A program made the position numbers and the translations under genes. A DNA stretch of 63,668 nucleotides, counting the filler, from Atractiella rhizophila (Eukaryota), in NCBI GenBank assembly GCA_021432655.1. It is 7 parts of 6 records of this genome, joined end to end, with 100 filler letters (N's around TTAATTAATTAA, not from the genome) between each part and the next. Parts side by side here need not be neighbours in the genome. Positions count along the whole stretch, not along the records: positions 32,652 to 38,237 come from MU272063.1; 6 more parts are not named here. The stretch is one strand, 5' to 3'. Below are positions 23,594 to 56,238 of the stretch, one piece after another; the stretch's first letter is position 1; each line of letters starts with the position of its first letter. The notes beneath the pieces were generated by a model. It was not told the DNA's origin. It searched no databases and saw only the letters and a list, made by a program, of their open reading frames with translations.

Positions 23594-26125
23594 AGTAGTC
23601 AGATACGAATGGATATCTTTTGTGATTTTCAGTCTGGGACAAATAATGTACTAGCCTCCACTTTTGAAATTTTTATAAAGATCACGCCAACTATTCTAAA
23701 AGCAAAGGCAAATTTTGAGCTTTTATCGGATCAATTACAGCTGCAGTTGCAAGAGGACTGAATGCACTGTTACGGAGTCAGACAATGTAAATATAATGTG
23801 AGTTGATGCTCTGCTTTGTTAATATCCCCTCAATGCTAATAATTCTTATACATCGTGATAGCTAGCTCTCAGGCCTCGCATTCGATGTACTCACGCCTGA
23901 GATACAATGGATAATGACGAAGTAATATGGAATCATATGTTTGACATATATAGGGTGTGTATTTTTTCCTTCGCTTTTTTTTGATGTTTGCTCACTCTTA
24001 TTACGCATTATACGTCGTAATATTTAGCCCCCAAGCCCATCGCTCCTCCCCCTCACGTCTAAAATACAATGGATAATAGCGAAGCAATGAGGAATTGCGT
24101 TTTTGATGTATATGAAGTGCATGTTTCGTCCTCCGCTTTTTTTAATGTTCGCTCGTTCTCAATATACATTATACGTCGTTGAAGCTACATCTTAGGCCTC
24201 CCATTTGCGCCACTCATGTCTAAATTACGATGGATAATGGCGAAGCAATGAGGAGTTGCGTTTTTTGATGTATATGAGGTGCGTATTTTGTCCTCCGCTT
24301 TTTTTAATATTCGCTCGTTCTCAATACACATTATACGTCGTTGAAGATACATCTCAGTCCTCCCATTCGCGCTACTTACGTCTAAAATACGATGGATAAT
24401 GGCAAAGCAATGTGGAATTGCATATTTTGATGGATATGAGGTGCATATTTTGTCCTCCGCTTTTTTTAACGTTCACTCGTTCCCAATATACATTATACGT
24501 CGTTGAAGCTACATCTTAGGCCTCCCATTCGCGCTACTCACGTCTAAAATACGATAGATAATGGTGAAGCAATGCGGAATTGCATTTTTTGATGTATATG
24601 AGGTGTGTGTTTTGTCCTCCGCTTTTTTAATGTTCACTCATCGTTATTACATGTTATACAGGGCAACAACAGCATCATATACGTTGTGTTCAAGCGACTT
24701 AATAGGAAAACACTTTGGGTATTGATATCGGAAGGTGCGATTACATTTCAAGTTTCAACATACCCATATCTTTATTTATGTATTTTTCTTTTGCTTCAGA
24801 GACAGACACATTCCTTTTCATAGACACTGGATCAGTCTAAATTATGTCCATGATGAAGCATTAATCATTACTACGTTCTTGCATTCCATAATATTCGATG
24901 GCGACCACTTTTGTGTTTGCAGCCCGATGCGGCGCAAATCTCCCCGAAATTGAGCGCAAAACCCTCGGGGCGACCAGTTTGCCGATTGAGTGGAAGGATG
25001 GTCTCTTCTCTATTTCGAGCTTGCTCCAAACCTCCAGTGACCGCAGGAAATCCCCGACCTGAACAAAGTTCAAGGAGGGCCGGCAAACTGGTCGCCCCGA
25101 GGGTTTTGCGCTCAATTTCGGGGAGATTTGCGCCGCATCGGGCTGCAAATACAAAAGTGGTCTATTATGGAATGCAAAACATAGTAGTGATTAATGATTC
25201 ATCATGGACATAATTTAGACTGATCCAGTGTCTATGAAAAGGAATGTGCCTGTCTCTGAAGCAAAAAAAATAAAACAAATAAAGATATGGGTATGTCGAA
25301 ACTTGAATTCGCACCTTCCGACATCAATACCCAATGTGTTTTCCTGTTAAGTCGCTTGAACGCAACGTATATGATGCTGTTGTTGCCCTGTATAACATGT
25401 AATACCGATGAGTGAACATTAAAAAAGCGGAGGACAAAACACACACCTCATATACATCAAAAAATACAATTCCTCATTGCTTCGCCATTAACTATCGTAT
25501 TTTAGACGTGAGTAGAGCAAATGGGAGGCCTAAGATGTAGCTTCAACGACGTATAATGTGTATTGAGAACGAGCGAATATTAAAAAAAGCGGAGGACAAA
25601 ATATGCACTTCATAAGCATCAAAAAACGCAATTCCTCATTGCTTTGCCATTATCCATCGTATTTTAGACGTGAGGGTGAGGAGCGATGGGCTTGGGGGCT
25701 AGATATTACGACGTATAATGCGTAATAAGAGTGAGCAAACATCAAAAAAAGTGAAGGAAAAAATACACACCCTATATGTCAAACATATGATTCCATATTA
25801 CTTCGCCATTATCCATTGTATCTCAGGCGTGAGTACATCGAATGCGAGGCCTGAGAGCTAGCTATCACAATGTATAAGGATTATTAGCATTGAGGGGATA
25901 TTAACAAAGCAGAGCATCAACTCACATTGTATTTACATTGTCTGACTCCGCAACAGTGCATTCAGTCCTCTTGCAACTGCAGCTGTAATTGATCCGATAA
26001 AAGCTCAAAATTTGCCTTTGCTTTAGAATAGTTGACGTGATCTTTATAAAAATTTCAAAAAGTGGAGGCTCATTATTTGTCCCAGACTGAAAATCACAAA
26101 AGATATCCATTCGCATCCGACTACT
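23594..26125. repeat. Long imperfect inverted repeat: arms 23594-24984 and 25081-26125, 96-nt spacer
   Basis: ...ggggcgaccagtttgccg pairs with cggcaaactggtcgcccc... at the inner ends; agtagtcagatacgaatggatatct pairs with agatatccattcgcatccgactact at the outer ends. Confidence 0.95.
23866..24660 (+). repeat. ~161-bp tandem array (~5 copies in the left arm; ~3 in the right arm, ~25390-25860)
   Basis: The (g/a)gataat...aagc/taat anchor recurs at ~23910, 24071, 24232, 24394 and 24556. Reverse-complement anchors occur at ~25485, 25647 and 25805. Confidence 0.9.
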
Positions 26126-32651: not shown

Positions 32652-33020
32652 TCCCTCCCCACACACCCTCTCCGCCTCCTCTTTATCCCCTTTCCTCCCT
32701 CTTCTCCTACAAGACCTTCGCCCCTAGTCCCCCTCCCTTTCCAAGCGTCACACCTGCTAGTCTCCTCGCTCATGACAAATCGTTCGCTCCCATTTTCGCC
32801 ACTTCGTCCCTTAGATTCATTTGCGGAGCGAACATCCGCGGAGGGGACCCAGAAGTGGAAGGATTGGGAGAGTGGAGAGGAGCGGTTGAGACTGAAAAGA
32901 AACCCGTTCTGGAATTTCCATGGTACTGTGGTAGGAGCAGTGAGGATTGTGGAAGAACTTTGCTTCAGCATTCCAGAGCCTCAGGTCATCGACAAACTAC
33001 TGGAATTGGAGAATGAATGA
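32652..33020 (+). CDS. 3' end of an unidentified gene
   Basis: Frame is open from the contig start to TGA 33020. Confidence 0.5.
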   Translation, partial: SLPTHPLRLLFIPFPPSSPTRPSPLVPLPFQASHLLVSSLMTNRSLPFSPLRPLDSFAERTSAEGTQKWKDWESGEERLRLKRNPFWNFHGTVVGAVRIVEELCFSIPEPQVIDKLLELENE

Positions 33021-33339
33021 CGATACCCCTACTACCCACTGAGGCTCGGTCATCCAGACTTCAACTTGGGTTGTCTGGCGTGCAAATTCAACCTCATTCT
33101 GTTTTCCAGGAGCGTTCACATGGCCCACATGTAGACGTCTTCATCGGTGTCAGGGAGGTAACATCCACTAATCAGCGTCACGACAATAATCGGAAAAGCT
33201 ATACATCCACGCGGCGGAAGGATCGAAATATTGCATTGGCGATAGGGAAGATTTCAGAATGGAATGCAATTGACTTTGTCGATTTCTGCGTTGCAAGAAC
33301 CACAACTGTAGGAACACGCCTCATCAACAGTGCATTCAG

Positions 33340-36300
33340 AAATGCAGATGAGTTTGCTTCAATCTTGTCCACAAGCTCAGCAGACGGTTGGGCAGCGCGC
33401 CGGCAACAACTCGCCGTTCTGTGAGCCTCTATTAGTCACAATGTTTTTCCAGATGCGAATCAAAAACGTACACTTCCCAGTATGGCTAGCAATGAGATAA
33501 CCTTCAGCGTTTGAACATGTGTTTGAGACTTTTTTATGAGAATTGAAAGTCTTTCCAGTATCTGTTTACCAGCTTCGATGAGCCGGAAACGGCTTAAACA
33601 TAGCAAAGGGCGTACCGCATATTTTACCACAACAAAGACAGAGAATCTGGCTGGTCGATCCAGGAGGAGGGACGTAGAACCACGGCGCGCCGTTGCATTC
33701 ATCTGTCTCCGTCTGATGCCGCTGAACGTAATAGTCCCTAGCTTCGCGCTGACAATGAGGAAAATCCAGCAGGGCATGGTGGAGCGTATACCATACAGTT
33801 GTTTGCAACCTGTGCATATTGTACGTTCTCCTTGATGGTGCGTGCGCTGATGCCTAGGTGAACATCCGTGAGCTGCTCCATTGGAGTTTGCAATTTTGCA
33901 CCTCACCTGTATAATGTTACTGTGTTCAGAAAAGGAGTCAAGCATATGGGGCAAGTCGGGTACTCCTTCAGTTGCTCCTTAAGTTTTGAGGACACGGCAA
34001 ACCTTTCCTTCAAAGAAGGAATGTGACGGGATCGTCCGGTCTTACAAGCAGAGGAGGTGCTCTCGCTTCGATGTTGCTCATACTCATCTTCCAGCTCTAT
34101 AAAGACAGTGAGACTACTTGGAGTCCATCCACTGAGGAGTGGTTGCAAGTACGTTACGACTAGAAAAGAAGCAAGACAGTGAGACTACTTGGAGTCGAAG
34201 TTGTCAGACGAATAGGAACGGGTCTTGAGGGGAGCATCAAAGGGAGGAGGGATAGTAGGGATAGTTCTGTCAGCAGGGTTCAGAAGACCCACTGATCGAT
34301 CTAGGAAGTTTCATTTTTGTTCAAACTTACTAGCTAAAGAGTTTAATCTAACTATGCCGTTAATCCGATGAAACCGCTGAATTCGTGAGTTGAGTTGATC
34401 AAGACAAACAAAAAACGTGGGTTCGACGTTTGCTACGGATGGGAGTTTTACTATAGTTCAACACCACGCTGTTCCGCTCCTAAAGTTCATGTATATTGCA
34501 CTCGAGGCAGGAGTGTAAGTAACTTTAAATGACCACAACTCAACCGTACTTTACTCCTACTTACTTCCATTACTTTATGGTCAGTCTCGCGATGATCGTC
34601 CTCCGCTCCCTTTAGGTGGAGCGGCCCGAGACTACCGTTTACGGCTCATCCCCTTACAGGCGAAGGGTACGGAAAAGTCGCTGAGTGCGGCAGAAAGCTC
34701 GCGCCTGTATCAAGGAAGCGACTGAGAGCGAAGGCACTTACTTAGTCTTGGCGTATAGGTTGGATACCTGACTCAAATGCGAGCTTCAAGACCAGCGAAA
34801 AGACGTAGTTCGGAACCAGCGTCCAACTAGCTCTACGCTAACAATCTAGCCTCCAGAACGAAGTATGACTTGGTACGTGTTATTTTCAAACGTCAACTTA
34901 CATACTAGGCTGTAGAAGGATTCTCTGCTATAAGAGACAGCTTCCACGCTGTTTAAACGCTGGCGAATAGCAGAAATCTAAGAAATAGCAGCGAAGGGAG
35001 TGTCTTTTGAGCTGTCGGAGACCTCGCTAACTAACAGCTTACAACTCGACGGTAGTTTTTTAGACTCGACCTTAATAGCTCTACCGGTTACTCCGGTGCA
35101 TGATGACAGTTACTTGCCATTACTTGGAGATGTACGCTCCGTAACACGCGCGAGTACCTTTTGTCTGCCTCAGTTTGACAAGTTAGGTTTACTATAAGGT
35201 AGAATTACTATCTAGGTGCCTTGACGAGGCGCTATAGGTCTGCACTTTCAGTACGTCCAGGAACTCATACGTTTAAAAAGGCGCATTATTAGAGTATTAG
35301 TGTCATTCATGTAAATACCTATTTCTTGTAAGAGACAGGCTGATCGATTAACGGAGGCAAGCGATTTATCATACGACGAACCTTAAAGTTACACTATAAA
35401 CCCTGAAAGTAAGGAGAGGTTCGGACTGAACTGACTTACTCGGGCGAATGTCCATAACAACCTTCAGATGGAAGCGCCACGGCTGTGGTGAGAGCTTGCG
35501 CAAAGTCGTAATAATCCGCCGACCGCGTGTTGCTATCTCCAAGTACTTAATCCTCACTCGATCTATCTTCCCTCAGTTCCAGGTCAAGCTCTTTCGTAAA
35601 CACCTTCGCATTCAAAAAGTTCATTGCGCTTCGACTCGATTTCAGAACGTCCTTTCTTTCGTACCCATCTTTTGCCGCACCTGCAGGGGGTCCTGGTGCA
35701 GGCAGGAAGACGATCAAATCCTCAGAGAGACTACGTGGGTTGAAGATCCATGTTAGCTAGTAGTATTACTCGATGCTATATCTCGCATGGTCCGTTTCTT
35801 GGTAGTGTAAGCACTTTCTGGACTTTTTTACTGTATATTTCCTTTCACGTAAGCCGGCGCTTAGGGGTCTGAAAAAGGACTTTCTAAAAAAAGTCTACAC
35901 CCTAACCGGTCCAAAGGCCGCGCGGTCCCATTCTTGTTGAACGCAGGATGTGTTCAATAAATTGACTTGATCCTGTATGTGCGGCTCATGTTTGTAATCA
36001 ACTTCCTGCTCGCCCCTTTCCCCTCCTTATAGGAGTACCTACGGTGGAAACGGGAAAGGCAAGCTTTGTAGATCCCTTAAACTCTTTCATTCTAAGAATA
36101 GTAGTTATAAGTCCGTCATTGTGGCAAAGTCCGTGTATGCTTAGTGAGTACTACTACGACAAAGTGTAGAGACGAGTCGAACGCCAGCGCCAAACACATC
36201 CATAACAGAATGAGCCGAGAAAGCGTATAATTGAGACCTCGTTGGTAGATCGTTGCTTCCATTTACGCGCTTTTGTAGTTTGGGTTGCGAAATGTGGTGA

Positions 36301-36427
36301 CCTTACAGCATTATCGGCGTAACAGTAACGAGGTTTTATGGTTTATTTCCGCTTAACCTAAACAAGACGTACGCTTCATAGTAAGCCATGCAGTTGAAAC
36401 GCAGCTATAACTCGATTCAACGTAAGC
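33340..36427 (-). CDS. AT-hook plus six C2H2/C2HC zinc-finger protein; 5' exons lie in the mirror-reversed segment; both ends approximate
   Basis: Normal minus-strand exons give CPIC...LYRHQRTHH, CTGC...QRH...C and CLCC...NSH...C. The plain complement of 35652-36427 gives RKRRGRPP, CHLC...RKHIRITH, CSAC...RKH and WICSACEVSF, which splices onto ELEDEYEQH. Confidence 0.88.
34101..36427. other. Segment reversed but not complemented (probable gap-filling artefact)
   Basis: Its complement, read left to right, has phase-consistent GT-AG introns and joins seamlessly to the minus strand at 34100. It abuts the N gap 36428-36519. Confidence 0.93.
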
Positions 36428-37151
36428 NNNNNNNNNNNNNNNNNNNNNNNNNNNNNNNNNNNNNNNNNNNNNNNNNNNNNNNNNNNNNNNNNNNNNNNNN
36501 NNNNNNNNNNNNNNNNNNNCAGACTAAATTCCAAGGCCATTGATTCAGATAGATTCGAAACAAGGTCGATATATCCAGATATATCCCTGGACAGATCGAG
36601 ATGGACGAAGCGAGACTTCTCGGGAGAAAGGTAAGATTGAGTCAGAGATTACCGCAAGACTACAGGATAGTCTTTCTCCAGTCGGAGGCAACTCCCGCTT
36701 CTTCCCGTCTATCTGGAACAAATATAACATCTCTTCCTCTTTCGTCCTGCCCTTTGTCTGTGTTAAGAAGACCTTACCTTTATCCTGAGAACGAGTGGCT
36801 GATAACCCTAACGCAATCCCAATGTTGGGATTTTCGACCGCTCGATTCAACTGACAACATTCATGATTTTGGACAACTCAACGTTCCTCAACCACGTTCA
36901 ATATTACTGAATTGTGCCTATCAAGCGCACAAGTTCAGTCGGAGGTACATCACGCAAAGGGCCAGAGATTTCTCATCATAATTGCGCGCAATTTGTGAGG
37001 GACAAGGTCGAAACAGAGCCACAAGGACGAAAATTGTTGACGTGAATATGTCAACCAGATCCGCTAACCAGGACGCATTCGACTCGGAAAACAGCAAACC
37101 ATCATCACCGGATCACCTCTCGCATTCTCTTTCTCTCGCGCCTCAAAAGAC

Positions 37152-38237
37152 ATGGCCCATCCGTCCGTCATCCCGGATCCTCCCACCGACTTTGCGACTC
37201 CCTCAACTTCTTCCAAGGACCCTTTTCCTCCCGCGCTCGCACCGGTTGGAAAGGGATTGCCAGAAAACGATAGGCTCATGGCTCCTGTGACTAAGGTACG
37301 TACTCTCAATCTGCTGCTTTGCTCCTCTCGTTGATGATATCATGATCAACATCGACAGTTCATTCGCTCTTCCTCCCCGAAGAGGAATCCATCCTTCTTC
37401 AGGGTGCTTCGGTACATGCTCACCTCTCCAGTGGGCAGAGAGCCATTACTGGTTGGTTCTTCCTTCGAGGCTTCTCTCGAGCATGGTGATGACCAAAGTG
37501 TGATGGATCCAGCGATTCATCCAGTACACTCTGCGTTTCTACGTCTTCGTCCTTCTCTCCTCCTCTTCTTCCTCCGCCCAATCTCAAGGAACGGTGGCAA
37601 GGCACTCTACGCTCCGACTACTCCTCCTCGTCTCGCTCCTCTCCACCTTCCGCAAATTCCTTTCCTTCTCCCTCTTCTCTCCATCCTCTCCGCCTCCAAA
37701 GACGCCTCCGTCCACTACCGTCACCACAGATGCCTACTTCCCCACCTCAGGCACGGGAAGGAACCGTTCACAGAGTCTAGAGTCGATCGCGCAACAATCG
37801 GAGCGTCTACAGAAGAGACTAAGGCTGAAAGCATCTCTCGAATCCATGGGAGGATGCAGCGCCTCCCTGCTCTCCATCATCGAAGACCTCTCTCTAGTCC
37901 TCCGCCTTGCTCTCCTCCTAACCTCTTCCCTCCCTACCACCCTCGTCAATGGCACCCCGGCACCCAAGCCGCGATCGTTAGCACTGTCAGGGAAGTTAGC
38001 GGACGCGATGTTGTGCGGGAGCGCGTTCAGTAGTTTCTTCTTGACCCTGATGGAAATCCAAGAGCTGGATTGGTTCGTGGGACGAATGAAGAGGCGGATA
38101 GGGACTATAGAAGGTTATGCACTCGTCGATCCAGTCACTGGACAATATCGCCCTCTCCCGAAAGGACTCTCGCAACCCAACACGCCTGCACCCAGACCCA
38201 TCTTCGATTATAACGCCGCGGTCTTCTCCTCCGCTTC
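37152..38237 (+). CDS. PEX11/PEX25-like peroxisomal membrane protein, 3'-truncated
   Basis: Spliced LTSPVGREPLL..IQYTLR resembles the Pex11 GRDKxxRxxQY motif; helical hydrophobic body. Confidence 0.5.
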
Positions 38238-42307: not shown

Positions 42308-43123
42308 GAATATACTGGTTTGTTTCTTTCTTTCCATTTATCTCGCGATAGACTGCGGTACAGGTCCGTGGACACGCTTTACTACTTCCTTACCAATCGC
42401 AGCGGATTCCAACAATACCGATCTTGCGTTCACATTTAGGACGTGTGTCTTGTCCTCCATCCATCGTGGACCTTTGTAACATTAGAGCTACAGACCAAAC
42501 GCGTTTCTCCGCCTCGATGATGTCCGAGTTTACAAAAGCGACAAACCTGTAACTCCCCCTCTCAATCCCATCGATAACAATCTGTCCAAAAAGTCTTCAA
42601 ACGCTGGCCCTATCGCTGGCGGTGTTATTGGAGGATTGACTGCTGTAGCTCTCATCGTCGCTGGGGCTTTCTTTTACCGGAAGTATCAAAGGAAGCAGGA
42701 GTTACAAAGGAGAAGGATGGAAGCGAGCATAATGGCACAGGAGTTCGAGAAGTTTGCTAGTATGTCTGTCCTGACACAACTGCTGGGAAGAGCTCATATT
42801 TGGGCTCAGCAGGAAACGATGGTAGCACTGTTGCTGGTTCTCCATCACCGTTCCCTTCCGTAACGGAGCACGTCAGCAACACTCCTTACGGTGCGACCCG
42901 GTCGGATACTTCGAGTGTCCCACGATTCAACATGGTTCCAGAGCTTCAAACCACAAGTCCTCGACCTCCGACTGGGATGAGCGTCAGCAATCCGCATTTC
43001 CCGGATACATATAGCCAGTGGGATCACACCCCTCAGTCCTTTACGTCTGCAGCCATCTCGGGAACGAATTACGATCAAACGCAACCAGACTCTTACAGTC
43101 ATTGGGCACATGGAGCAAGATGA
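42308..43123 (+). CDS. 3' part of a single-pass cell-surface protein (Mid2-like transmembrane motif)
   Basis: NAGPIAGGVIGGLTAVALIVAGAFFYRK followed by a basic stop-transfer and a spliced Ser/Pro-rich tail. Confidence 0.75.
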
Positions 43124-43697
43124 GGAAGAGAGGATCGTTAGATAGAAGAATTCCTTCCTTGATGTTAAGCTCCATCTCGATTGATGAATGCGTTTGATAA
43201 TTGCTTTTTGTGAACTCGTGTATACACTGTTTCTGCCCAAGTTCATCGAAGTGTCGATTCTTACCGATGCATGCACTAGTTGACTTGTTTCGGTACTGAG
43301 CAATCGCACTCAAATCCGTTGATTGTAACTGTCAATTCAGCGGAATCATAGTCTTGACTGTCTTTCGATCTTCTCTAGGTAATATATTCATATACTTTAG
43401 TCCAGGGCTGATTGGCTTGCTAATCCAATTGCATGCAAACGAAGTTGCTTCTTCAATTCTTTACAAACCAACGTAAGACGTTGAGTCTGATGTCTGGGTA
43501 TATTACTGCTCCAGCAAAGACTGTGTGTCCCAGTGAGTAACAAAATATTAGATCCTGCTTTACTAAAACCTGCAAAGTCGCTGCTACCTGTATTCACGCA
43601 GCCAGCGGACAACAATGAGGGGGGGTCAAGATAAGCGAATTTCTGCGAAGACTTTATCATAAGAATACCGTTCTGAGTTCGAGCAAAATCAGTGCAG
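43047..43697 (+). repeat. 651-bp direct repeat, near-identical to 50007-50657
   Basis: Both run ctgcagccatctcggg...gagcaaaatcagtgcag with very few substitutions. Confidence 0.95.
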
Positions 43698-43933
43698 TAT
43701 TTATGCCTTCATATCAGTAAATGAAGGCCGTGCTTCCGACTCCACTATAAGTCCGTTCCTTCTTCCACTGCTGATGAGTTGAACGATAACGGTTAACCGC
43801 AGTTTCTTTGAGGTTCATTCTGACGATCCAGTTGCAACTCCCCATGGCCTCTGCGGCACTTTTGATTTCAGCGCCTATCAGCAGGAACAATATAATTACA
43901 TGGTACATGTAGTTACTTTGATCCCTTTCTGTT

Positions 43934-46184
43934 CTATCGTATGTGACCCCGGTATGAAGTTACCTTTTGCAAGATTTGATCCAACATTGACATGTCGTGC
44001 TCCGCCTTAATCAGCGCACCATCCACAGCCCCCTCTGGTCGCGACATAACTGTCCTATTCACGTTCATCGGATACTTCACCTCCCCAATCTTTCCCGCCC
44101 AATCACAAATCCACCAGCATCACCCTAACTGGATCAGATTGGGATACCAAGAGGTTCACATCGCGGACATCGCCATGCACTAAGCCCCGCTGATGCAACT
44201 CGTCAAGAATTCCGTTGATTCCATCCAGAACCGTAGGGATGCCGTCCTGATGTCGAATCGATGGTTCCTCTTCCAATCCATCACCACCATAAACCAACCC
44301 CGGCAATCTTTTCGAAACCACGAAGCGCTGGTGCGAACCCTTTCTCGGCGCATATTTCGTGAGCCTGCTTCGAATATCTTCGAACGGATTTCACACACAG
44401 TCGCATTCCTTTTTCTTGCTGTTCGCAGAAAAACAGAAGCTTTTCCCCGAAAGGTTGTCGCTCGTACTCGAAAGTTTGTGAAGTACCGTCCTTCAAACTA
44501 GTGAAACTCCTAGGATACTGGAATATTTGCGATTGCCATCCGGTGATCCTGATAAGTCTCTCTTGTGACTCTGGTTCAGGCTTCAGGTTCTGGTAGTATT
44601 CTTCGAGAGACGCCACCGCCTTCTTCAGTGCACCAAGATGACGAGCTACCTTTCGCCGGGTATCCTCGTCCGTCAAGTGGTAATGCAGAGGCAGACAAAC
44701 CGACAGTGTCTCCATTGGAGGACGTAAATCCCACGCAGCCCCAGCGAACGCGATGTATGGCCTACCCGCATCACAGCATTCCTAAGTCGCCTTGCAAGAG
44801 GAAAGTATTATACTTACCAATACAAATATCAGTATGCACGGTAATGGCGAGTGCTCGAACACGGTCGCCTGGTCCCTAGTTGAATCGAAGTAATACAATC
44901 CTGCCTGAGCGAAAGGGTCTGCCCCTTTACTACTGATTTCGTTTTTGAACTCCATAATGGCACATCGATGCTTCCCTACAAGTTTGTCTCCATCTCTCAG
45001 GAACTCGCCAGGTGTGTGGGATACCACCATTTTACACCCCATTCCGCAAACAACTCCATCACCGCGGCCGCTCGCGTAACTTCGAGAGGGTAGAAATCTG
45101 ACATCGTCGATGATAGCTCCATCACAAAGGCATTGTCAGCGGCCGTAATTTTCACAGTCGTCCAAGAAGCGGCCGAATACAGGATGGAGCAATGTTGTTG
45201 GATTCGTCGTCGTCGCCGAACGAGGTCGGTTGCCGAAGATTTGGTGCTTTATGGCAGATTGTCGCTTTGCAAACGCACTTGACTCGGCTCCTATAGATGG
45301 TGCAATTCTCACGTTATCTTCCAAGAAGCGGTGACGCCGTGCCCTGATACGTTGTTGCTCAGCTGACTGAGGAATTGCTGGAGGTTGAGATCGCAATGGT
45401 GCTAACCGAACGATTCAGGGAGGGCCAAAGATGAGAACGAGTTCCGAGTGGTGACTTACCAGAGGCAGGGGCATCGACAACGACATGGACGTGGTGTGGA
45501 TTTAGTGACTGCACGAAAATTTCGGAGAGCAGATCGGTGGAAAACCGCAACGGCTTGTCATGACTGGCACCCTTCAGTTTCTCTTTCAGGTTTTCGTCAT
45601 TGAGAAAATAGACTTGGTGAAGAGCTAGCAGTTCGGCGTGGATACCCGAGAAATAATGTGGGGTGTGTCTCTTAAATAGCCTCTTTGAGCTGTCCAACAT
45701 TTCTGTTGGCAGAGATATGGATATTAAGCACATTGCCGACGTCGGTACCTAGAATCCAATAGTTGAGACCTGTGAGGAAGATGTCGATGAATAAAATATA
45801 GAGAAATGAGATCGCACGGATATTGAGTGATTTATTGATGACGATGGTTCCTTTCAGATCAAGCTCCGAGACGACCTTCGATAATTCGACTTGCCGTCCT
45901 AGTTTATCCTAGTTGCGCAAAGACATTGTAGTGAGATGTTTGTCGTCCGGCCGAGCGACTTTATACAGATCGAACGTTGTTGCTGACATGTCGCGAAGAC
46001 ACTCTGAGGTCTCGGTCTTGATAGCATGTTGGAGCTGTTCGACAGTTTTCCTGCTAGAGATATTGATGGTGAACACATTGCCGACGTAACCCAACATTTG
46101 AGTGCTGCAATGGTGGCGGTGAGAAAATGTTGGTGAATGAAGTAAAATCGTACAAATATTGGGTGACCAACGAGCTCTTTTTCT
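43934..46184 (-). pseudogene. Crinkler-type gene: two ubiquitin-like header domains, PD-(D/E)xK nuclease, kinase; frameshifted (pseudogene or sequence errors)
   Basis: VFTINISSRKTVEQLQHAIK, second header ending VHVVVDAP, EFKNEI...PFAQAGLYY, APAL, VHGDVRDVNLL, and DFDWAG split by an extra base. The ATG lies at the far end of the reversed block. Confidence 0.8.
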
Positions 46185-48512
46185 GGCTAGCCTCGTCATC
46201 GAACGCTTAAGGATGAACCCCGCTCTCACACCCGATACACCCTGGCAGTTTCCACCTAGTAGATAAAGAAGCCGTAGAAACGGTAGACACCGTCGCAGCA
46301 GCTCTAATATCGATAGGATGGGCTGGCTTCCAACCTCAACATGCAGCAGTAAAGGAAAAGGCAGGGTGGCGGTCGGCTGGATTTGAAGACTGTTTGTTTA
46401 CGTTGTCTGGGGGTCCTAACTTCCCTACATAACCCTGCCCTGTGGTGTCCCCTCTGTAATCAAGAAGGAGGGAGGTGAAACTATTGTGACGAATGCGAAA
46501 CGATGTCAATGGAAACCTGTATGACCATATAGCCGGGTAGGACCGTCATTAACAGCAAGTGCGAATTCGTCCGAGGGTGGTGAGGAGATGCTGTGGTGAC
46601 GTTGGTATAAACGGGAGTACAAGCAGACTAACAGTAGATTGTCCGTCGCAAAATTAGCCAAGACATCTGGCGACTATTCCGTAACCGCTTATAGTGGAGC
46701 CGGAGCAGGTGCGGACGAATGGTAAAAAGAAGCACTGCCTTACGATATGAAAAACCACCGTAGGTGAACATTGAATCAATTGCAGTAAATGAAGGACAAG
46801 CAGGAAAGGGAAGGCAGGGAGGAGAGGTTGTTACTGCAAACACCTGTACTTGTCGTACGGCTTTCAATGCTTATTTCGCGAGTTACGAGGTGAGTGGTAG
46901 CGGAAGTGCTGATACTACCGGAGTGCGTAGCAGGAGTTGGAAGCTAGACCGAGATTGGTCGGCTCATGTGCACTTCTTGACCAAAGCTTCTTCTGGCTGT
47001 TGAACTTACAATCGCTCCGTCGCTACAAATTGGTTGAGCAGTTGTTAAAAGTTAGGACGGTGACCATTGGTTTCATTAGCGCTTCTGAACCTTGCCTCAC
47101 ATGTCCACGCAATACCCGGCATACTCAGAGTTTCGTCTTCTCTCTGCAACCATGCTACCTCCTAGACCTTCTAATGCCTCTTTTCATAGCGGTTAGAAAT
47201 TGGACTACAATTCGCTTCTAAAGTCCATTCAATATGTACTTGAATAATTGGCAAGGGTTGAACGCATCCTTGTTCCTTTGTGCTTTATAGTATATTAAGA
47301 GTGTTCAGTACAAACACGCGTTTATGAATTAGTTCAGTAGCGGGTGCAAAAGCTTAACCTGTACTATTACCACCGGGAATTTCCCTCATCTTGTGTAAAA
47401 GCTTATTGCCGCTCTTGAACTTCAGCGTCGTCTGACTTAATAATGACAAAGTAGCACTACAGACGTCATAACAGGAAGATCATTATAGCACTACAAGTTC
47501 GAAGTCGAAGTTTTCGTGACACCCCAACTTAGATGTAGGCGGTAAAATACAAAGTAAGTTGGTTAGAGACATTGTAGTACAGTGGCTTTGACGTTTTGTT
47601 CTCACTGAAGACTGAGTCTTAAACCTTGCAAATACGACCTTTCGGGTGCTTCTATGCGGATACATTCCTATCTCGAGCGTGGCACTAAGTGCTTTATTGC
47701 GGTAAAGTACGTTCTACGATAGCTAGTTCAATGATACATCTTGGAGAGAGTAATGGGACAAGGAGAGTAACGACGTTACGGTGAGTCTCACGGTCAGTGT
47801 TAAACTACAACAACGGCACTAGTATAGTACACTAGTATAAACTCTAGTTTACTCGCGATGTACGAACCTCTTTGACTTTTACTAGTTTGCGCCTACCACA
47901 CGGAACATCTCATATGGCAGCCACCCTCACTTTTCCCTTTATGATTTCTTATCCGGGATAGTCAAGGGGAACATTACAATTTCATCGTTTTCGTATTATT
48001 ACAACTCCTCGTAGTCGTTTTGGTGGCCGAGATACTCGAGGTGGAACTGACTCTTGAGGTCGACTTAGGGCGGGAGTCGACGGGGGTGAAGGCACACGTG
48101 AGAACAGTATTAAAAAAGTTTCACGCATGCCATGGGCTATGTAGGTACTGTCTCCCAACGTCGTAATGACGGTTAGGCAATTGCTGTCTTTAAAAGTATA
48201 AAAATGGTATAAGGTGTCTTGCTTGATACTCGCGCTCGCGCCTGTTAGAGCTCGAACTTACAACCGAAATGCCGGTTCTGGGAAGGGTGTGGAAAGTCCA
48301 GTGCTAAAGCTTCTTCCTTGCCAATCGTCCTGAATTTTCCGAATAGGTGTCGGTCTTCGGTGCTGGGGAGGTGCTGCACCTTCGGCCTTACAACCTAGAG
48401 ATGTCTTAAAGAACGAGACTGCTCCTCCTCGAGTCACTTAGTCAAAACTTGTTGCACGGTTTTGACTGCCCTGCTGATTTTAATAACCGACTCGACAAAA
48501 GACTTATACTGG
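46185..48512. other. Second reversed-not-complemented segment; holds a mirror copy of 50657-52001 and the Crinkler upstream region
   Basis: 46187-47510 read backwards matches 50657-52001 closely. Reversal gives ATG ACC AGA AAA AGA at the junction. It abuts a 25-N gap. Confidence 0.95.
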
Positions 48513-48537
48513 NNNNNNNNNNNNNNNNNNNNNNNNN

Positions 48538-49671
48538 TCCATCTGTCAGGAACTCGCCTGGTGTGTGGGATACCACCATTTTACACCCCATTCCTCAAAC
48601 AACTCCCTCACCGCGGCCGCTCGCGTAACTTCGAGAGGGTAGAAATCTGACATCGTCGATGATAGCTCCATCACAAATGCATTGTCAGCGGGCGTTATTT
48701 CGTCGTCCAAGAAGCGGCCGAATACAGGGTGGAGCAATGTTGTTGGATTCGTCGTCGTCGCCGAACGAGGTCGGTTGCAGAAGATTTGGTGCTTTGTGGC
48801 AGATTGTCGCTTTGCAAACGCACTTGGCTCGGCTCCTATCGATGGGGCAATTCTCACGTTATCTTCCAAGAAGCGGTGACGCCATGCCCTGATACGGTGT
48901 TGCTCAGCTGACTGAGGAAATGATGGAGGTTGAGATCGCAATGGTGCTAACCGAACGATTCAGGGAGGGCCAAAGATAAGAACGAGTTCCGAGTCGCGAC
49001 TTACCAGAGGCAGGGGCATCGACAACGACATGGACGTGGTGTGGATTTAGCGACTGCACGAAAAATTTCGGAGAGCAGATCGGTGGAAAACCGCAACGGC
49101 TTGTCATGACTGCACCCTTCAATTTCTCTTTCAGGTTTTCTTCATTGAGAAGATAGACTTGGTGAAGAGCTAGCAGTTCGGCGTGGATACCCGAGAAATA
49201 ATGTGAAGTGTGTCTCTTAATAGCCTCTTTGAGCTGTCCAACATTTCTGTTGGCAGAGATATGGATATTAAGCACATTGCCGACGTCGGTACCTCGAATC
49301 CAATAGTTGAGACCTGTGAGGAAGATGTCGATGAATAAAATATAGAGAAGTGAGATCGCACGGATATTGAGTGATTTATTGATGACGATGGTTCCCTTCA
49401 GATCAGGCTCCAAAAACACCTTCGATAATTCGACTTGCCGTTCTAGTTTGTCCTAGTTGCGCAAAGACATTGTATGAGATGTTTGTCGTCCGGCCGAGCG
49501 ACTTTATAGAGATCGAACGTTGTTGCTGACATGTCGCGAAGACACTCTGAGTTCTCGGTCTTGATAGCATGTTGGGGCTGTTCGACAGTTTTCCTGCTAG
49601 AGATATTGATGGTGAACACATTGCCGACGTAACCCAACATTTGAGTGCTGCAATGGTGGCGGTGAGAAAAT
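48538..49671 (-). pseudogene. Second partial copy of the Crinkler gene, between two N gaps
   Basis: Closely matches ~44990-46128 with substitutions and small indels. Confidence 0.85.
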
Positions 49672-50969
49672 NNNNNNNNNNNNNNNNNNNNNNNNNNNNN
49701 NNNNNNNNNNNNNNNNNNNNNNNNNNNNNNNNNNNNNNNNNNNNNNNNNNNNNNNNNNNNNNNNNNNNNNNNNNNNNNNNNNNNNNNNNNNNNNNNNNNN
49801 NNNNNNNNNNNNNNNNNNNNNNNNNNNNNNNNNNNNNNNNNNNNNNNNNNNNNNNNNNNNNNNNNNNNNNNNNNNNNNNNNNNNNNNNNNNNNNNNNNNN
49901 NNNNNNNNNNNNNNNNNNNNNNNNNNNNNNNNNNNNNNNNNNNNNNNNNNNNNNNNNNNNNNNNNNNNNNNNNNNNNNNNNNNNNNNNNNNNNNNNNNNN
50001 NNNNNNCTGCAGCCATCTCGGGAACGAATTACGATCAAACGCAACCAGACTCTTACAGTCATTGGGCACATGGAGCAAGATGAGGAAGAGAGGATCTTTA
50101 GATAGAAGAATTCCTTCCTTGATGTTAAGCTCCATCTCGATTGATGAATGCGTTTGATAATTGCTTTTTGTGAACTCGTGTATACACTGTTTCTGCCCAA
50201 GTTCATCGAAGTGTCGATTCTTACCGATGCATGCACTAGTTGACTTGTTTCGGTACTGAGCAATCGTACTCAAATCCGTTGATTGTAACTGTCAATTCAG
50301 CGGAATCATAGTCTTGACTGTCTTTCGATCTTCTCTAGGTAATATATTCATATACTTTAGTCCAGGGCTGATTGGCTTGCTAATCCAATTGCATGCAAAC
50401 GAAGTTGCTTCTTCAATTCTTTACAAACCAACGTAAGACGTTGAGTCTGATGTCTGGGTATATTACTGCTCCAGCAAAGACTGTGTGTCCCAGTGAGTAA
50501 CAAAATATTAGATCCTGCTTTACTAAAACCTGCAAAGTCGCTGCTACCTGTATTCACGCAGCCAGCGGACAACAATGAGGGGGGGTCAAGATAAGCGAAT
50601 TTCTGCGAAGACTTTATCATAAGAATACCGTTCTGAGTTCGAGCAAAATCAGTGCAGAAGCTGAAGCCTGAACATCACGATATTAATAGAAGGACAATAC
50701 TGCAGACACCACGATAAAACAGTTAATAATTCACACTGCTGACGACTTCAACGATAACGCCGTTAACCGAAAATGTGTTCTACTCCCTTTAAGGGCCACC
50801 ATTATCACGATCCAATTCGAAAACGTGCCCCATGGACTCTGAGGAACTATTTGAGCACAAACATGACTATCAGCAGGAACAATATGATATTTCGTGTTTC
50901 CTTGTTCCTACGCAAGTTGGGAACAGTTAATAAGTTCATGTATAACTTACCTGAAATCTTCGCTTAACA

Positions 50970-52470
50970 TCAAGTTAAAGATTGACGATACTTTTCTCCG
51001 TAATCTTCCAGATCCTCCATCTGTACCAACGTCTCTCTTCTGCTTTGGGACTCATACGGCCCATAACGCACCTGTACACTCCGTTCCAAGTCTTCGCGAT
51101 TACTTTGGTTACCAGTGGCAGGATTGAAATTGTTGACGAGTTGGTTAAACATCGCTGCCTCGCTAACATTCAAGTTGTCGATCTTCTTCGAAACCAGTTC
51201 TTCACGCGTACTCGGCTGGTTAGAGCCAGATCGAAGGTTGAGGACGATGCGTGAGGCCATCATAGTCGTGAAGGCGATGGTGAGCGGAGCATTGAGCGCT
51301 TTATTCGTAACGTTCGGCATGCTGTTCATGTCCACAAAAACACAACAACCGTCATTGTTGGAGAGGAGGAACGGAAGGGAAAGGACAAACAGGAAGTAAA
51401 TGACGTTAACTAGGTTACAAGTGGATGCCACCAAAAAGTATAGCATTCCGTCACGAAGAAAAATGGTAAGCAGGCGTGGACGAGGCCGAGGTGATATTCG
51501 CCAGTGCCTTATCAGCGGTCTACAGAACCGTTTAAAACGCTGGCCTGTTAGATGATATCAGACGAACATGAGGGCAAATATAGTTGCAGTCGTGTCGTAG
51601 AGGAGTGGTGGGAGCCTGCTTAAGCGTGAACGACAATTACTGCCAGGATGGGCCGATATACCAGTATGTCCAAAGGTAACTGTAGCAAAGCGTAAGCAGC
51701 GTTATCAAAGTGGAGGGAGGAAGAACTAATGTCTCACCTGTGGTGTCCCGTCCCAATACATCCCTTCAATCCTGGGGGTCTGTTGCATTTGTTTGTCAGA
51801 AATTTGGGTCGGCTGGCGGTGGGACGGAAAGAAAATGACGACGTACAACTCCAACCTTCGGTCGGGTAGGATAGCTATAATCTCGACGACGCTGCCACAG
51901 ATGGCAAAGATGCCGAAGAAATAGATGATCCACCTTTGACGGTCCCACATAGCCCACACTCTCGCCCCAAGTAGGAATTCGCATGCTACTGCTCGCATCG
52001 ACGTGTATCAGATTCATAGGGAAAAAGGACAGGAGGACATACAGAAGAGCACTGTGGTCGTCACAGGTTGAAAGAATTGAATCTTGTCGCAGACCTTGGG
52101 GTCAATTTCAATCCAGAGAAAAGTCATAAAGATGAGGAGGTCGATGAGACCACAGTAGCTTGTACGCAAGGTCATTGTTCTCCTCGATGAAAGTCCATTG
52201 ACGCACCGATTGATGAAGAAAACAACCCGGATTGGAGTCCAGCGCTCAGCCTTCCACATAGTCCTATATTCTTGTGGGAACGTGAGAATGAAATCGTAGG
52301 CGAAAACCGAGAAGCAGGCTGTCCATTGCGGTTAAATCAAATCAGAGAGGGCATCCTGAGATGAGAAAAATGTAAGATGAACCTGTTAGGTATGCGCGAC
52401 TTGCGGAAAGGATCTCCTCAAACGCTTCATGCTTCAAGGCCAAAGCAAGCTGCTCTTCTAGCGTTGCCAT
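50970..52470 (-). CDS. DUF6533-type multi-pass membrane protein
   Basis: AYDFILTFPQEYRTMWK...FFINRY, RVWAMW, IFLRDGMLYF, ASRIVLNLR; multi-exon. Confidence 0.88.
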
Positions 52471-55398: not shown

Positions 55399-56238
55399 AT
55401 GCGCTTTTCTCCTTCTCAGACATCAAACAGCAAGGGAGATGTAAGTCTGATTGTTTCTTTAGAGATCACCCTCCTATCACTTTTGATGACCTTATTCTCC
55501 TTGTCTCTCCCTTGAATTTGAATGCGCGCACTGACTTCGAGATTTCCTTATAAGCTCACAAAGTTAACCATCAGCAATTTGGAAAATTTTGACAATTATC
55601 ATGCCCTACTGAGTTCGGTTCATGAGCAGTCGTGCCTGGAAGAAGAGTTGGACATGGTGAAGGACGAAGGGTTCTTGGGTATGTTCAAACGAGTTGGCAA
55701 TTGGATCCATAGAAATGTAAAGAGACCATGCCTGGAAGAAGAGTTTGACATGGTGAAGGACGAAGGGTTCTTGGGTATGTTCAAACGAGTTGGCAATTGG
55801 ATCCATAGAAATGTAAAGAGACCTTTTCCTCCACCTCTTTCGATGCCTGACCTTCACTGTTGACAGACGACAAGAATCTCTCGACGGGTCGGACACTTGC
55901 TTCGAGCAAACGAACCTAGAGTCGACACCATCGCAATTTCTCATCCTCGAAGCGTCGCATTCAGGTCCCCTTACGAAAGCGAGCGCTCTCTCGCAATGCA
56001 AAGTGTAATCGACGAGAATCTCCAGCAGCTCCTTTCACTCGAGGAGGCCCAACGTAGACGGCGTGCTCAGTCGGCTCAGGAGCTGGAGGAGTTGTTTGCC
56101 CCAAGTTCTTCAGACGGCTCCACTACTCCCATTGTGGGGTTCAATGAGGAAATGAGAAGAAGAAGTGAAGCGAATAGCATTTCTCACGACATGAATGACC
56201 TGAAGAAGAGGCTAGGGACGGATCCTTGCACTCGCTAG
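55399..56238 (+). CDS. Orphan spliced gene with an internal 96-nt tandem duplication
   Basis: ORFs 55522-55863 and 55897-56238 share a frame; a GTAAAG...CTGAC...GACAG intron spans the TGA. The start is tentative. Confidence 0.5.
55633..55823 (+). repeat. 2 x 96-nt tandem duplication
   Basis: tgcctggaagaagagtt...gtaaagagacc starts at 55633 and at 55729, with one internal mismatch. Confidence 0.95.

What the first reader, a model, noticed from the sequence alone, without database searches (positions are those of the whole stretch)
34101..36427. 2.3 kb of mirror-written sequence hides the 5' half of a gene
Seen: neither strand of this stretch reads as coding, but its plain complement does. Exons 35652-35698, 35749-35928, 35973-36087, 36132-36196 and 36252-36386 have GT-AG introns with consistent phases. 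The last intron (GTACGT...GCTAAG...cattcg) is completed by 'atag' from the true minus strand at 34100-34097 and rebuilds a zinc finger across the junction (WICSACEVSF-ELEDEYEQH). Inference: no known mechanism reverses DNA without complementing it, so this is most likely a gap-extension software error. It would silently truncate gene models and may recur across the assembly.
Basis: partly seen in the sequence, partly recalled or inferred. Interest (0 to 1): 0.75.

Follow-up and report, generated by a model that had tools for sequence, protein, structure and literature searches.

The report
Backwards-written gap extensions in fungal assembly
A 2.3-kb stretch beside an assembly gap was written back to front by software, hiding half of an ordinary zinc-finger gene; it is a recurring data error in this fungal assembly, not biology.

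Summary
Confirmed, and it is an assembly artefact. Contigs of two public runs (one sample) leave the window at 34103 and continue into the exact reverse of 36427 onward. A gap-free second copy in the same assembly matches the reversed block at 98.3% over 2,228 columns, and its annotated protein P0001 crosses the junction. The hidden gene is an ordinary multi-C2H2-like zinc-finger gene. The error recurs: a second, unreported block lies at 46186-48512. Beside 10 of 44 gaps in 74 small scaffolds I found such blocks (7 of 38 after dropping three pre-selected scaffolds), and all 10 were confirmed against normally written copies. Blocks lie on both sides of gaps and carry about 4 times more one-base indels than their flanks. 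This points to a long-read gap filler that complements minus-strand extensions without reversing them; PBJelly is my guess (about 60%, untested). The scan had already noted such blocks elsewhere in this genome. Nine paper searches found no published description.

The parts
34104..36427 (.). Mirror block 1 (2,324 bp): gap-extension sequence written reversed, not complemented; base 36427 truly follows 34103
   Evidence: Loose ends behind 34103 equal the reverse of 36427->36398 (X2 30 of 30 letters, X1 29 of 30); reversed block 98.3% to C74 and 97.5% to C863; best junction after 34103
36428..36519 (.). Residual gap of 92 N; C863 holds 132 bp here, and the C74 copy lacks about 230 bp around it
35609..35651 (.). 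Upstream 43-nt GT-AG intron, read on the plain complement; the exon before it has lost its annotated ATG through a one-base deletion private to the fill
   Evidence: P0001 N-terminus
35652..35698 (.). Exon on the plain complement (in-frame ATG at 35662)
35749..35928 (.). 180-nt exon on the plain complement; P0001 omits 18 codons inside it
35973..36087 (.). Exon on the plain complement, first half of C2H2 finger 1
36132..36196 (.). Exon on the plain complement
36252..36386 (.). Exon on the plain complement, last before the junction
36387..36427 (.). First 41 nt of the 48-nt junction intron; the last 7 nt are 34103-34097 on the true minus strand
   Evidence: the same 48-nt intron is contiguous in C74 (L006 6159-6206)
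33907..34096 (-). First normally written exon of the same gene
   Evidence: an intron-skipping contig of run X3 covers 33906-34097
33480..33853 (-). Remaining normally written exons; introns 33906-33854, 33791-33742 and 33615-33562; 3' end of the frame approximate
   Evidence: CT..AC skips at these places in runs X3 and X4; model matches P0001 at 305 of 328 aligned positions
46186..48512 (.).
   Evidence: Mirror match to window 50657-52000, 94.5% over 1,347 columns; reversed block 97.1% and 99.4% to gap-free C46; best junction after 46185
48513..48537 (.). Residual 25-N gap at an overfilled extension
   Evidence: the reversed block repeats sequence found further right in the same scaffold

Best explanation
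It is a software error made while extending contigs into scaffold gaps. SHOWN: the true DNA is the left flank up to 34103 followed by the plain reverse of 34104-36427. SHOWN: the same operation, an in-place reversal of a stretch that touches an unclosed gap, explains 10 blocks, 4 left and 6 right of their gaps. INFERRED (about 85%): the blocks are consensus sequences from a long-read gap filler. When the local consensus came out on the minus strand, the program complemented it but did not reverse it (the complement of the reverse complement is the plain reverse). Extensions that came out on the plus strand would be correct, so only some gaps are hit and neither side is favoured. Short reads cannot map to mirror DNA, so its long-read indels stay unpolished. 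INFERRED and partly RECALLED (about 60%): the program is PBJelly. The extension probably stalled here because the copies differ by a roughly 230-bp indel with an internal repeat. The hidden gene is an ordinary ~330-350 aa protein with two canonical C2H2 fingers and four further CxxC motifs, probably a nucleic-acid-binding regulator (inference), from a small family of paralogs.
For: Reads: loose ends behind 34103 match the reversed block (X2 30 of 30 letters, X1 29 of 30), and the 24-letter X1 loose end before 36520 equals reversed 34233->34210. X1 and X2 are one sample and may be the source of the assembly. Copies: after in-place reversal, flank plus block form one 3,686-column alignment to gap-free C74 at 98.2%; three paralog loci cross the junction at 73% only after reversal. 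P0001 residues 2-177 match the reversed block (E 7e-63); as written, only residues 151-328 get hits. Recurrence: 10 of 87 gap sides score at least 22 bits, against a null maximum of 15.5 bits in 3,360 anchors from 42 gap-free scaffolds. All 10 have mirror BLAST matches to normally written DNA, nine at 97-99% and L015 at 78% to a paralog. In-place reversal gave one alignment across the junction in 7 of 7 blocks where the copy spanned it. Error profile in 9 blocks: 30 one-base indels in 11,174 columns against 13 in 20,402 flank columns (p 5e-6); substitutions equal (12.6 against 12.2 per kb); 22 of the 30 are insertions in the block. Three-way at block 1: 7 private one-base indels in 1,440 fill columns, 0 in 1,721 flank columns. 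PBJelly extends flanks into gaps it cannot close, leaves overfilled gaps and defines gaps from 25 N (PMC3504050 passages; PMC7757076; PMC9635638). Two of the 10 blocks sit at gaps of exactly 25 N.
Against: The software was not identified by any test; that PBJelly writes 25 N at overfilled gaps, and has a complement-only step for extensions, is my recall and may be wrong. Three of 9 blocks show no indel excess (L030 0 in 473, L036 1 in 1,425, L014 1 in 1,190), and the normal left flank of block 2 has 8 one-base indels in 3,887 columns. Two-way comparisons cannot say which copy carries an indel. L017 has a 25-N gap with no mirror block, and overfill was not seen for L036. I did not show directly that correctly oriented extensions exist. 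Only Logan contigs were laid, not raw reads.
Confidence: 0.85

Rival explanations
1. Same artefact, different program: a short-read gap extender or an in-house patching script reverses some extensions.
For: Three of 9 blocks are nearly free of indels; block lengths of 0.5-2.3 kb are within reach of iterative short-read extension.
Against: Pooled fourfold excess of one-base indels, mostly insertions, with equal substitution rates. Both gap sides get the same operation (4 left, 6 right), whereas a walk-direction bug should favour one side (inference).
Confidence: 0.11
2. The reversal was made after assembly, in scaffold or AGP formatting, submission or the scan's own data handling: minus-oriented components were complemented without reversal.
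For: The window was reformatted (a linker replaces the 1,252-N gap of C884), so downstream handling exists.
Against: The held genome has the block as written (L011, 100% identical). Blocks have a gap on one side only and join gap-free DNA on the other, so they are parts of contigs, not whole components. They carry their own error profile.
Confidence: 0.035
3. Real mirror DNA made by an unknown biological mechanism.
For: None found.
Against: Run contigs continue into the reversed form; all 10 blocks touch N gaps and none was seen in 42 gap-free scaffolds; substitution rates equal those of the flanks. Templated synthesis is 5'-3' and antiparallel, so it gives reverse complements, not plain reverses (established knowledge).
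Confidence: 0.005

Closest known systems
PBJelly flank extension and overfilled gaps (English et al. 2012, PMC3504050; also PMC7757076, PMC9635638; passages read)
   Same: Long-read consensus is added to a contig end and shrinks a gap it cannot close; overfilling duplicates downstream sequence, as at block 2; 25 N is the program's default minimum gap size.
   Different: None of the passages read describes extensions written reversed without complementing. The known faults are overfilling and low base accuracy (PMC8848313). That this assembly used PBJelly was not tested.
Biological inversion or ordinary mis-oriented contig
   Same: A block lies in the wrong direction and breaks a gene.
   Different: Inversions are reverse complements and remain visible to BLAST and six-frame translation. 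This block is a plain reverse: no as-written hit outside itself.
P0001, 'hypothetical protein BT69DRAFT_1317730 [Atractiella rhizophila]' (name as given by the protein search)
   Same: 305 of 328 aligned positions identical to the repaired gene model, across the junction; its contig length (120,084) equals that of C74.
   Different: P0001 has 18 extra N-terminal residues from an upstream exon whose ATG the fill has lost, and lacks 18 codons inside the 180-nt exon.
C2H2 zinc-finger proteins (Pfam PF00096, PF13894)
   Same: Two canonical C-x2-C-x12-H-x3-5-H motifs; PF00096 E 1.5e-4 and PF13894 E 1.9e-3 on P0001.
   Different: Scores are below the curated cut-offs (22.5 against 25.2 bits; 19.2 against 27); the other four CxxC motifs are not canonical C2H2.

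Membership tests
Gap-filler extension artefact (PBJelly type) | Block touches an unclosed N gap | tested here: met
   10 of 10 confirmed blocks; none in 42 gap-free scaffolds
Gap-filler extension artefact (PBJelly type) | Block is the true continuation of its own flank | tested here: met
   One alignment across the junction after in-place reversal in 7 of 7 blocks with a spanning copy; loose ends at block 1. L007, L014 and L015 had mirror matches but no spanning copy.
Gap-filler extension artefact (PBJelly type) | Long-read error profile (one-base indels, insertion bias) | tested here: met
   2.7 against 0.64 per kb pooled, p 5e-6, 22 of 30 insertions; not seen in 3 of 9 blocks
Gap-filler extension artefact (PBJelly type) | 25-N gap left where the extension overfills (rule recalled, not found in print) | tested here: inconclusive
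   Block 2 is overfilled and has 25 N; L036 has 25 N but overfill was not seen; L017 has 25 N and no mirror block
Gap-filler extension artefact (PBJelly type) | The assembly was processed with PBJelly | not tested
   The history of this assembly was not examined
Gap-filler extension artefact (PBJelly type) | The program reproduces the error on known input | not testable with these tools
   No access to the software or raw long reads
Biological inversion | Block is the reverse complement of the ancestral sequence | tested here: not met
   No blastn hit on either strand as written; 98.3% hit only as a plain reverse
Real genomic DNA as written | Sequencing data continue across the junction as written | tested here: not met
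   Contigs of X1 and X2 leave the window at 34103 into the reversed form
C2H2 zinc-finger protein (PF00096) | C-x2-4-C-x12-H-x3-5-H motif | tested here: met
   Two motifs, at model residues 96 and 226
C2H2 zinc-finger protein (PF00096) | Reaches Pfam gathering score | tested here: not met
   22.5 bits against 25.2 on P0001
C2H2 zinc-finger protein (PF00096) | Binds zinc and nucleic acid | not testable with these tools
   Inference from motifs only

The most novel reading that the evidence does not exclude
A widely used long-read gap filler has an undocumented bug that writes minus-strand extensions as mirror DNA. Many public hybrid assemblies of fungi, plants and animals would then carry kilobase blocks that are invisible to BLAST, annotation and polishing, and that cause false gene losses and truncations. 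A simple k-mer orientation scan anchored at gaps finds them (10 of 10 calls confirmed here).
Probability: 0.5. Interest if true: 0.6.

Novelty: not a real feature. Interest (0 to 1): 0.3.

Why it matters
No new biology: the DNA as written does not exist and the gene is ordinary. It matters for data quality. In an unselected sample, 7 of 38 gaps (18%, Wilson interval 9-33%) and about 1.1% of 635 kb of small-scaffold sequence are mirror-written, and the blocks hide coding sequence. Odd-composition or hidden-gene findings beside gaps in this genome should be checked for this first. If the cause is a common gap filler, the same blind spot exists in other assemblies and can be screened cheaply.

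Tried and rejected
Read depth: all 12 bins from 34148 to 36391 have zero depth in 4 of 4 runs, and X1 and X2 cover the other 18 of 30 bins. A hole in contig cover proves nothing alone, so I rely on the loose ends; X4 is too sparse (10 of 30 bins) to inform. No RNA holder was listed; X3 and X4 contigs skip introns of the gene, but they are not on record as RNA, so expression is not claimed. The best share of words was 0.44, not used as evidence. My early RING-finger reading was dropped once the introns were placed. A homolog search with the unspliced frame 33463-33978 found nothing among 684 candidates. Pfam on five single stretches gave nothing above cut-off. The 57-71-bit Markov hit in gap-free L027 (1054-1680) is a tandem repeat with no mirror match, a false positive; L027 is outside the 74-scaffold sample. 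Gap sides at 14.8 bits (L047) and 10.8 bits (L017) are under the null maximum and were not tested. Junctions at 34098-34107 were compared and only 34103 needs no extra gap. Motifs of Rap GTPase and MTHFS (recalled) were not found in the L036 block. Literature: nine searches listed no paper on reversed, uncomplemented assembly blocks; passages of PMC6191289 and PMC7872254 were irrelevant and PMC5518131 had no matching passage. The rule that PBJelly leaves 25 N at overfilled gaps was not found in the passages read.

Full report
Setting. The window joins several small scaffolds of a 51.5-Mb eukaryotic assembly with 1,998 contigs. The finding lies in scaffold C884. Linkers of N and a short spacer mark scaffold ends and also replace one long gap. 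The one protein hit carries the name Atractiella rhizophila, a basidiomycete fungus, as given by its source.

The observation. A held-out Markov model trained on the rest of the window prefers the reversed reading in exactly two segments, 34088-36527 and 46139-48542, each ending at an N gap. As written, none of the block's 2,305 20-mers occurs in the other fetched DNA; reversed, 1,914 do.

What the real DNA is. Four public runs from at most three samples were laid on 32652-38237. Contigs of X1 and X2, which are one sample, fit up to 34103 and go on with letters that equal the plain reverse of 36427 downward (30 of 30 and 29 of 30). A 24-letter loose end before 36520 equals the reverse of 34233-34210. 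The assembly itself holds two normally written copies. On gap-free C74, left flank plus reversed block align in one piece of 3,686 columns at 98.2%; on C863 the reversed block aligns at 97.5% to its last base; three paralog loci cross the junction at 73% only after reversal. The best junction is after 34103, so the block is 34104-36427 and the junction intron has 48 nt. C863 has 132 bp where the window has 92 N, and C74 lacks about 230 bp there. That length difference, with an internal repeat, may be why the gap stayed open (inference).

The gene. The repaired model matches P0001, the annotated protein of the C74 copy, at 305 of 328 positions. It has two canonical C2H2 motifs and four further CxxC motifs. 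Pfam zf-C2H2 scores E 1.5e-4 but stays under its cut-off. About half of the coding sequence (177 codons of my model) lies in the mirror block. P0001 starts one exon earlier; the fill has lost one base of that start codon, which C74 and C863 both keep. The likely function is nucleic-acid binding (inference). The gene is not missing from the assembly; the window copy is a damaged duplicate.

Recurrence. Block 2 (46186-48512) mirrors window 50657-52000 at 94.5% over 1,347 columns and, reversed, matches gap-free C46 at 97-99%. I scanned the first 10 kb or less of 74 scaffolds of 9.4-11.4 kb: 44 gaps and 87 gap sides. Ten sides scored at least 22 bits; the null maximum was 15.5 bits in 3,360 anchors from the 42 gap-free scaffolds. 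All ten were confirmed by mirror BLAST. Five were confirmed against copies found by searching with the normal flank (98.4-99.4%), and five among loci already in hand (L015 only against a 78% paralog). Dropping the three scaffolds I had chosen because of this finding leaves 7 of 38 gaps (Wilson 9-33%) and about 6,965 of 635,024 bases, 1.1%. Four blocks lie left of a gap and six right; no gap had both. Large and mid-size scaffolds were not sampled, so these rates must not be extended to the whole assembly. Short blocks under about 400 bp would be missed.

Mechanism. Shown: each block is the plain reverse of the true sequence and touches a gap; in 7 of 7 blocks with a spanning copy it also continues its own flank. 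Inferred: a plain reverse results when a minus-strand consensus is complemented but not reversed, which explains why both sides are hit alike and only some gaps. The fills look long-read derived: 30 one-base indels in 11,174 columns against 13 in 20,402 flank columns (p 5e-6), 22 of 30 insertions, with equal substitution rates. At block 1 the three-way comparison gives the fill 7 private one-base indels in 1,440 columns and the right flank none in 1,721. Against this, three of nine blocks are almost free of indels and one normal flank is indel-rich. PBJelly extends flanks into gaps it cannot close, produces overfilled gaps and counts gaps from 25 N (PMC3504050, passages; PMC7757076, PMC6240028 and PMC9635638, passages). 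Block 2 is overfilled and ends at exactly 25 N. That PBJelly writes 25 N in that case, and that its output step has a complement-only branch, is recalled and comes from no call. I put the artefact at 99%, a long-read filler with a strand bug at 85% and PBJelly at 60%.

Rivals. A short-read extender is possible (11%) but fits the indel excess poorly. A formatting error after assembly (3.5%) would flip whole components, whereas these blocks are gap-bounded on one side only. Real mirror DNA (0.5%) is contradicted by the loose ends and by the strict link to gaps.

Known and new. Nine full-text searches (listings and abstract starts seen) gave no paper on this error. The library lacks most subscription papers and all software trackers, and no supplements were read. 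PMC8848313 (passages) documents low accuracy of PBJelly fills but the word 'reverse' does not occur in its main text. Four earlier notes of this scan describe backwards-written blocks on other pieces of this genome. They are unchecked AI notes and no support, but they show the scan has met this before. My L036 block (2,164 bp, with a 425-aa P-loop frame on the complement) may be the 2.2-kb block of one of them.

Verdict. It is not a real genomic feature. Biological interest is low; the value lies in a systematic, easily screened assembly error that may reach beyond this genome. Interest 0.3.

Noticed in passing
window 46186-48512: Second mirror-written block of almost the same length (about 2,327 against 2,324 bp), left of a 25-N gap. 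The other blocks run from 473 to 2,164 bp, so the equal length is probably chance.
   Followed up: yes
L007 7063-8713, L014 7235-~8463, L015 ~1770-2377, L016 1183-2440, L030 8302-8774, L036 1061-3224, L040 2247-2905, L070 4738-5311: Eight more gap-adjacent mirror blocks in other scaffolds, all confirmed by mirror BLAST.
   Followed up: yes
L036 1061-3224 (G000:C869): The complement reading holds a 425-aa frame with a P-loop motif and a 189-aa frame before it; it looks like an NLR-type gene hidden by the same error.
   Followed up: partly
window 34104-38237, L006, L007: Three copies of the locus (C884, C863, C74). In the fill each has 9-13 private substitutions in 1,440 columns, whereas in the right flank C74 has 30 and the others 6 and 2. 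This suggests haplotype-mixed consensus or more than two haplotypes; unexplained.
   Followed up: partly
window 35842-35895 (complement): P0001 omits 18 codons here, which implies a 54-nt intron with a GA rather than GT donor. The window, C74 and three paralogs share the same non-GT context; a non-canonical intron or a retained one.
   Followed up: partly
window 34104-34209 and gap 36428-36519: An indel of about 230 bp between copies, bounded by a 6-bp direct repeat and holding a short internal repeat; absent from C74, present in C863.
   Followed up: partly
window 43047-52000: Duplicated segments in one scaffold: 44989-46128 with 48538-49671 (95.8%) and 43047-43896 with 50007-50888 (90.6%), probably allelic contigs scaffolded in tandem.
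   Followed up: partly
window 23594-26125: Inverted repeat of about 720 bp (93.9%) around a ~160-bp tandem array; could be a transposon end or satellite.
   Followed up: no
window 55633-55823: Near-exact 95-bp tandem duplication (98.9%).
   Followed up: no
L008, L009, L010 (C74 104-113 kb, C59 118-127 kb, C1419): Clustered paralogs of the zinc-finger gene, three per 10 kb in C74 and in C59, with the same exon layout.
   Followed up: partly
L027 1054-1680: A tandem repeat that fools the orientation scan; screens should mask such repeats.
   Followed up: yes
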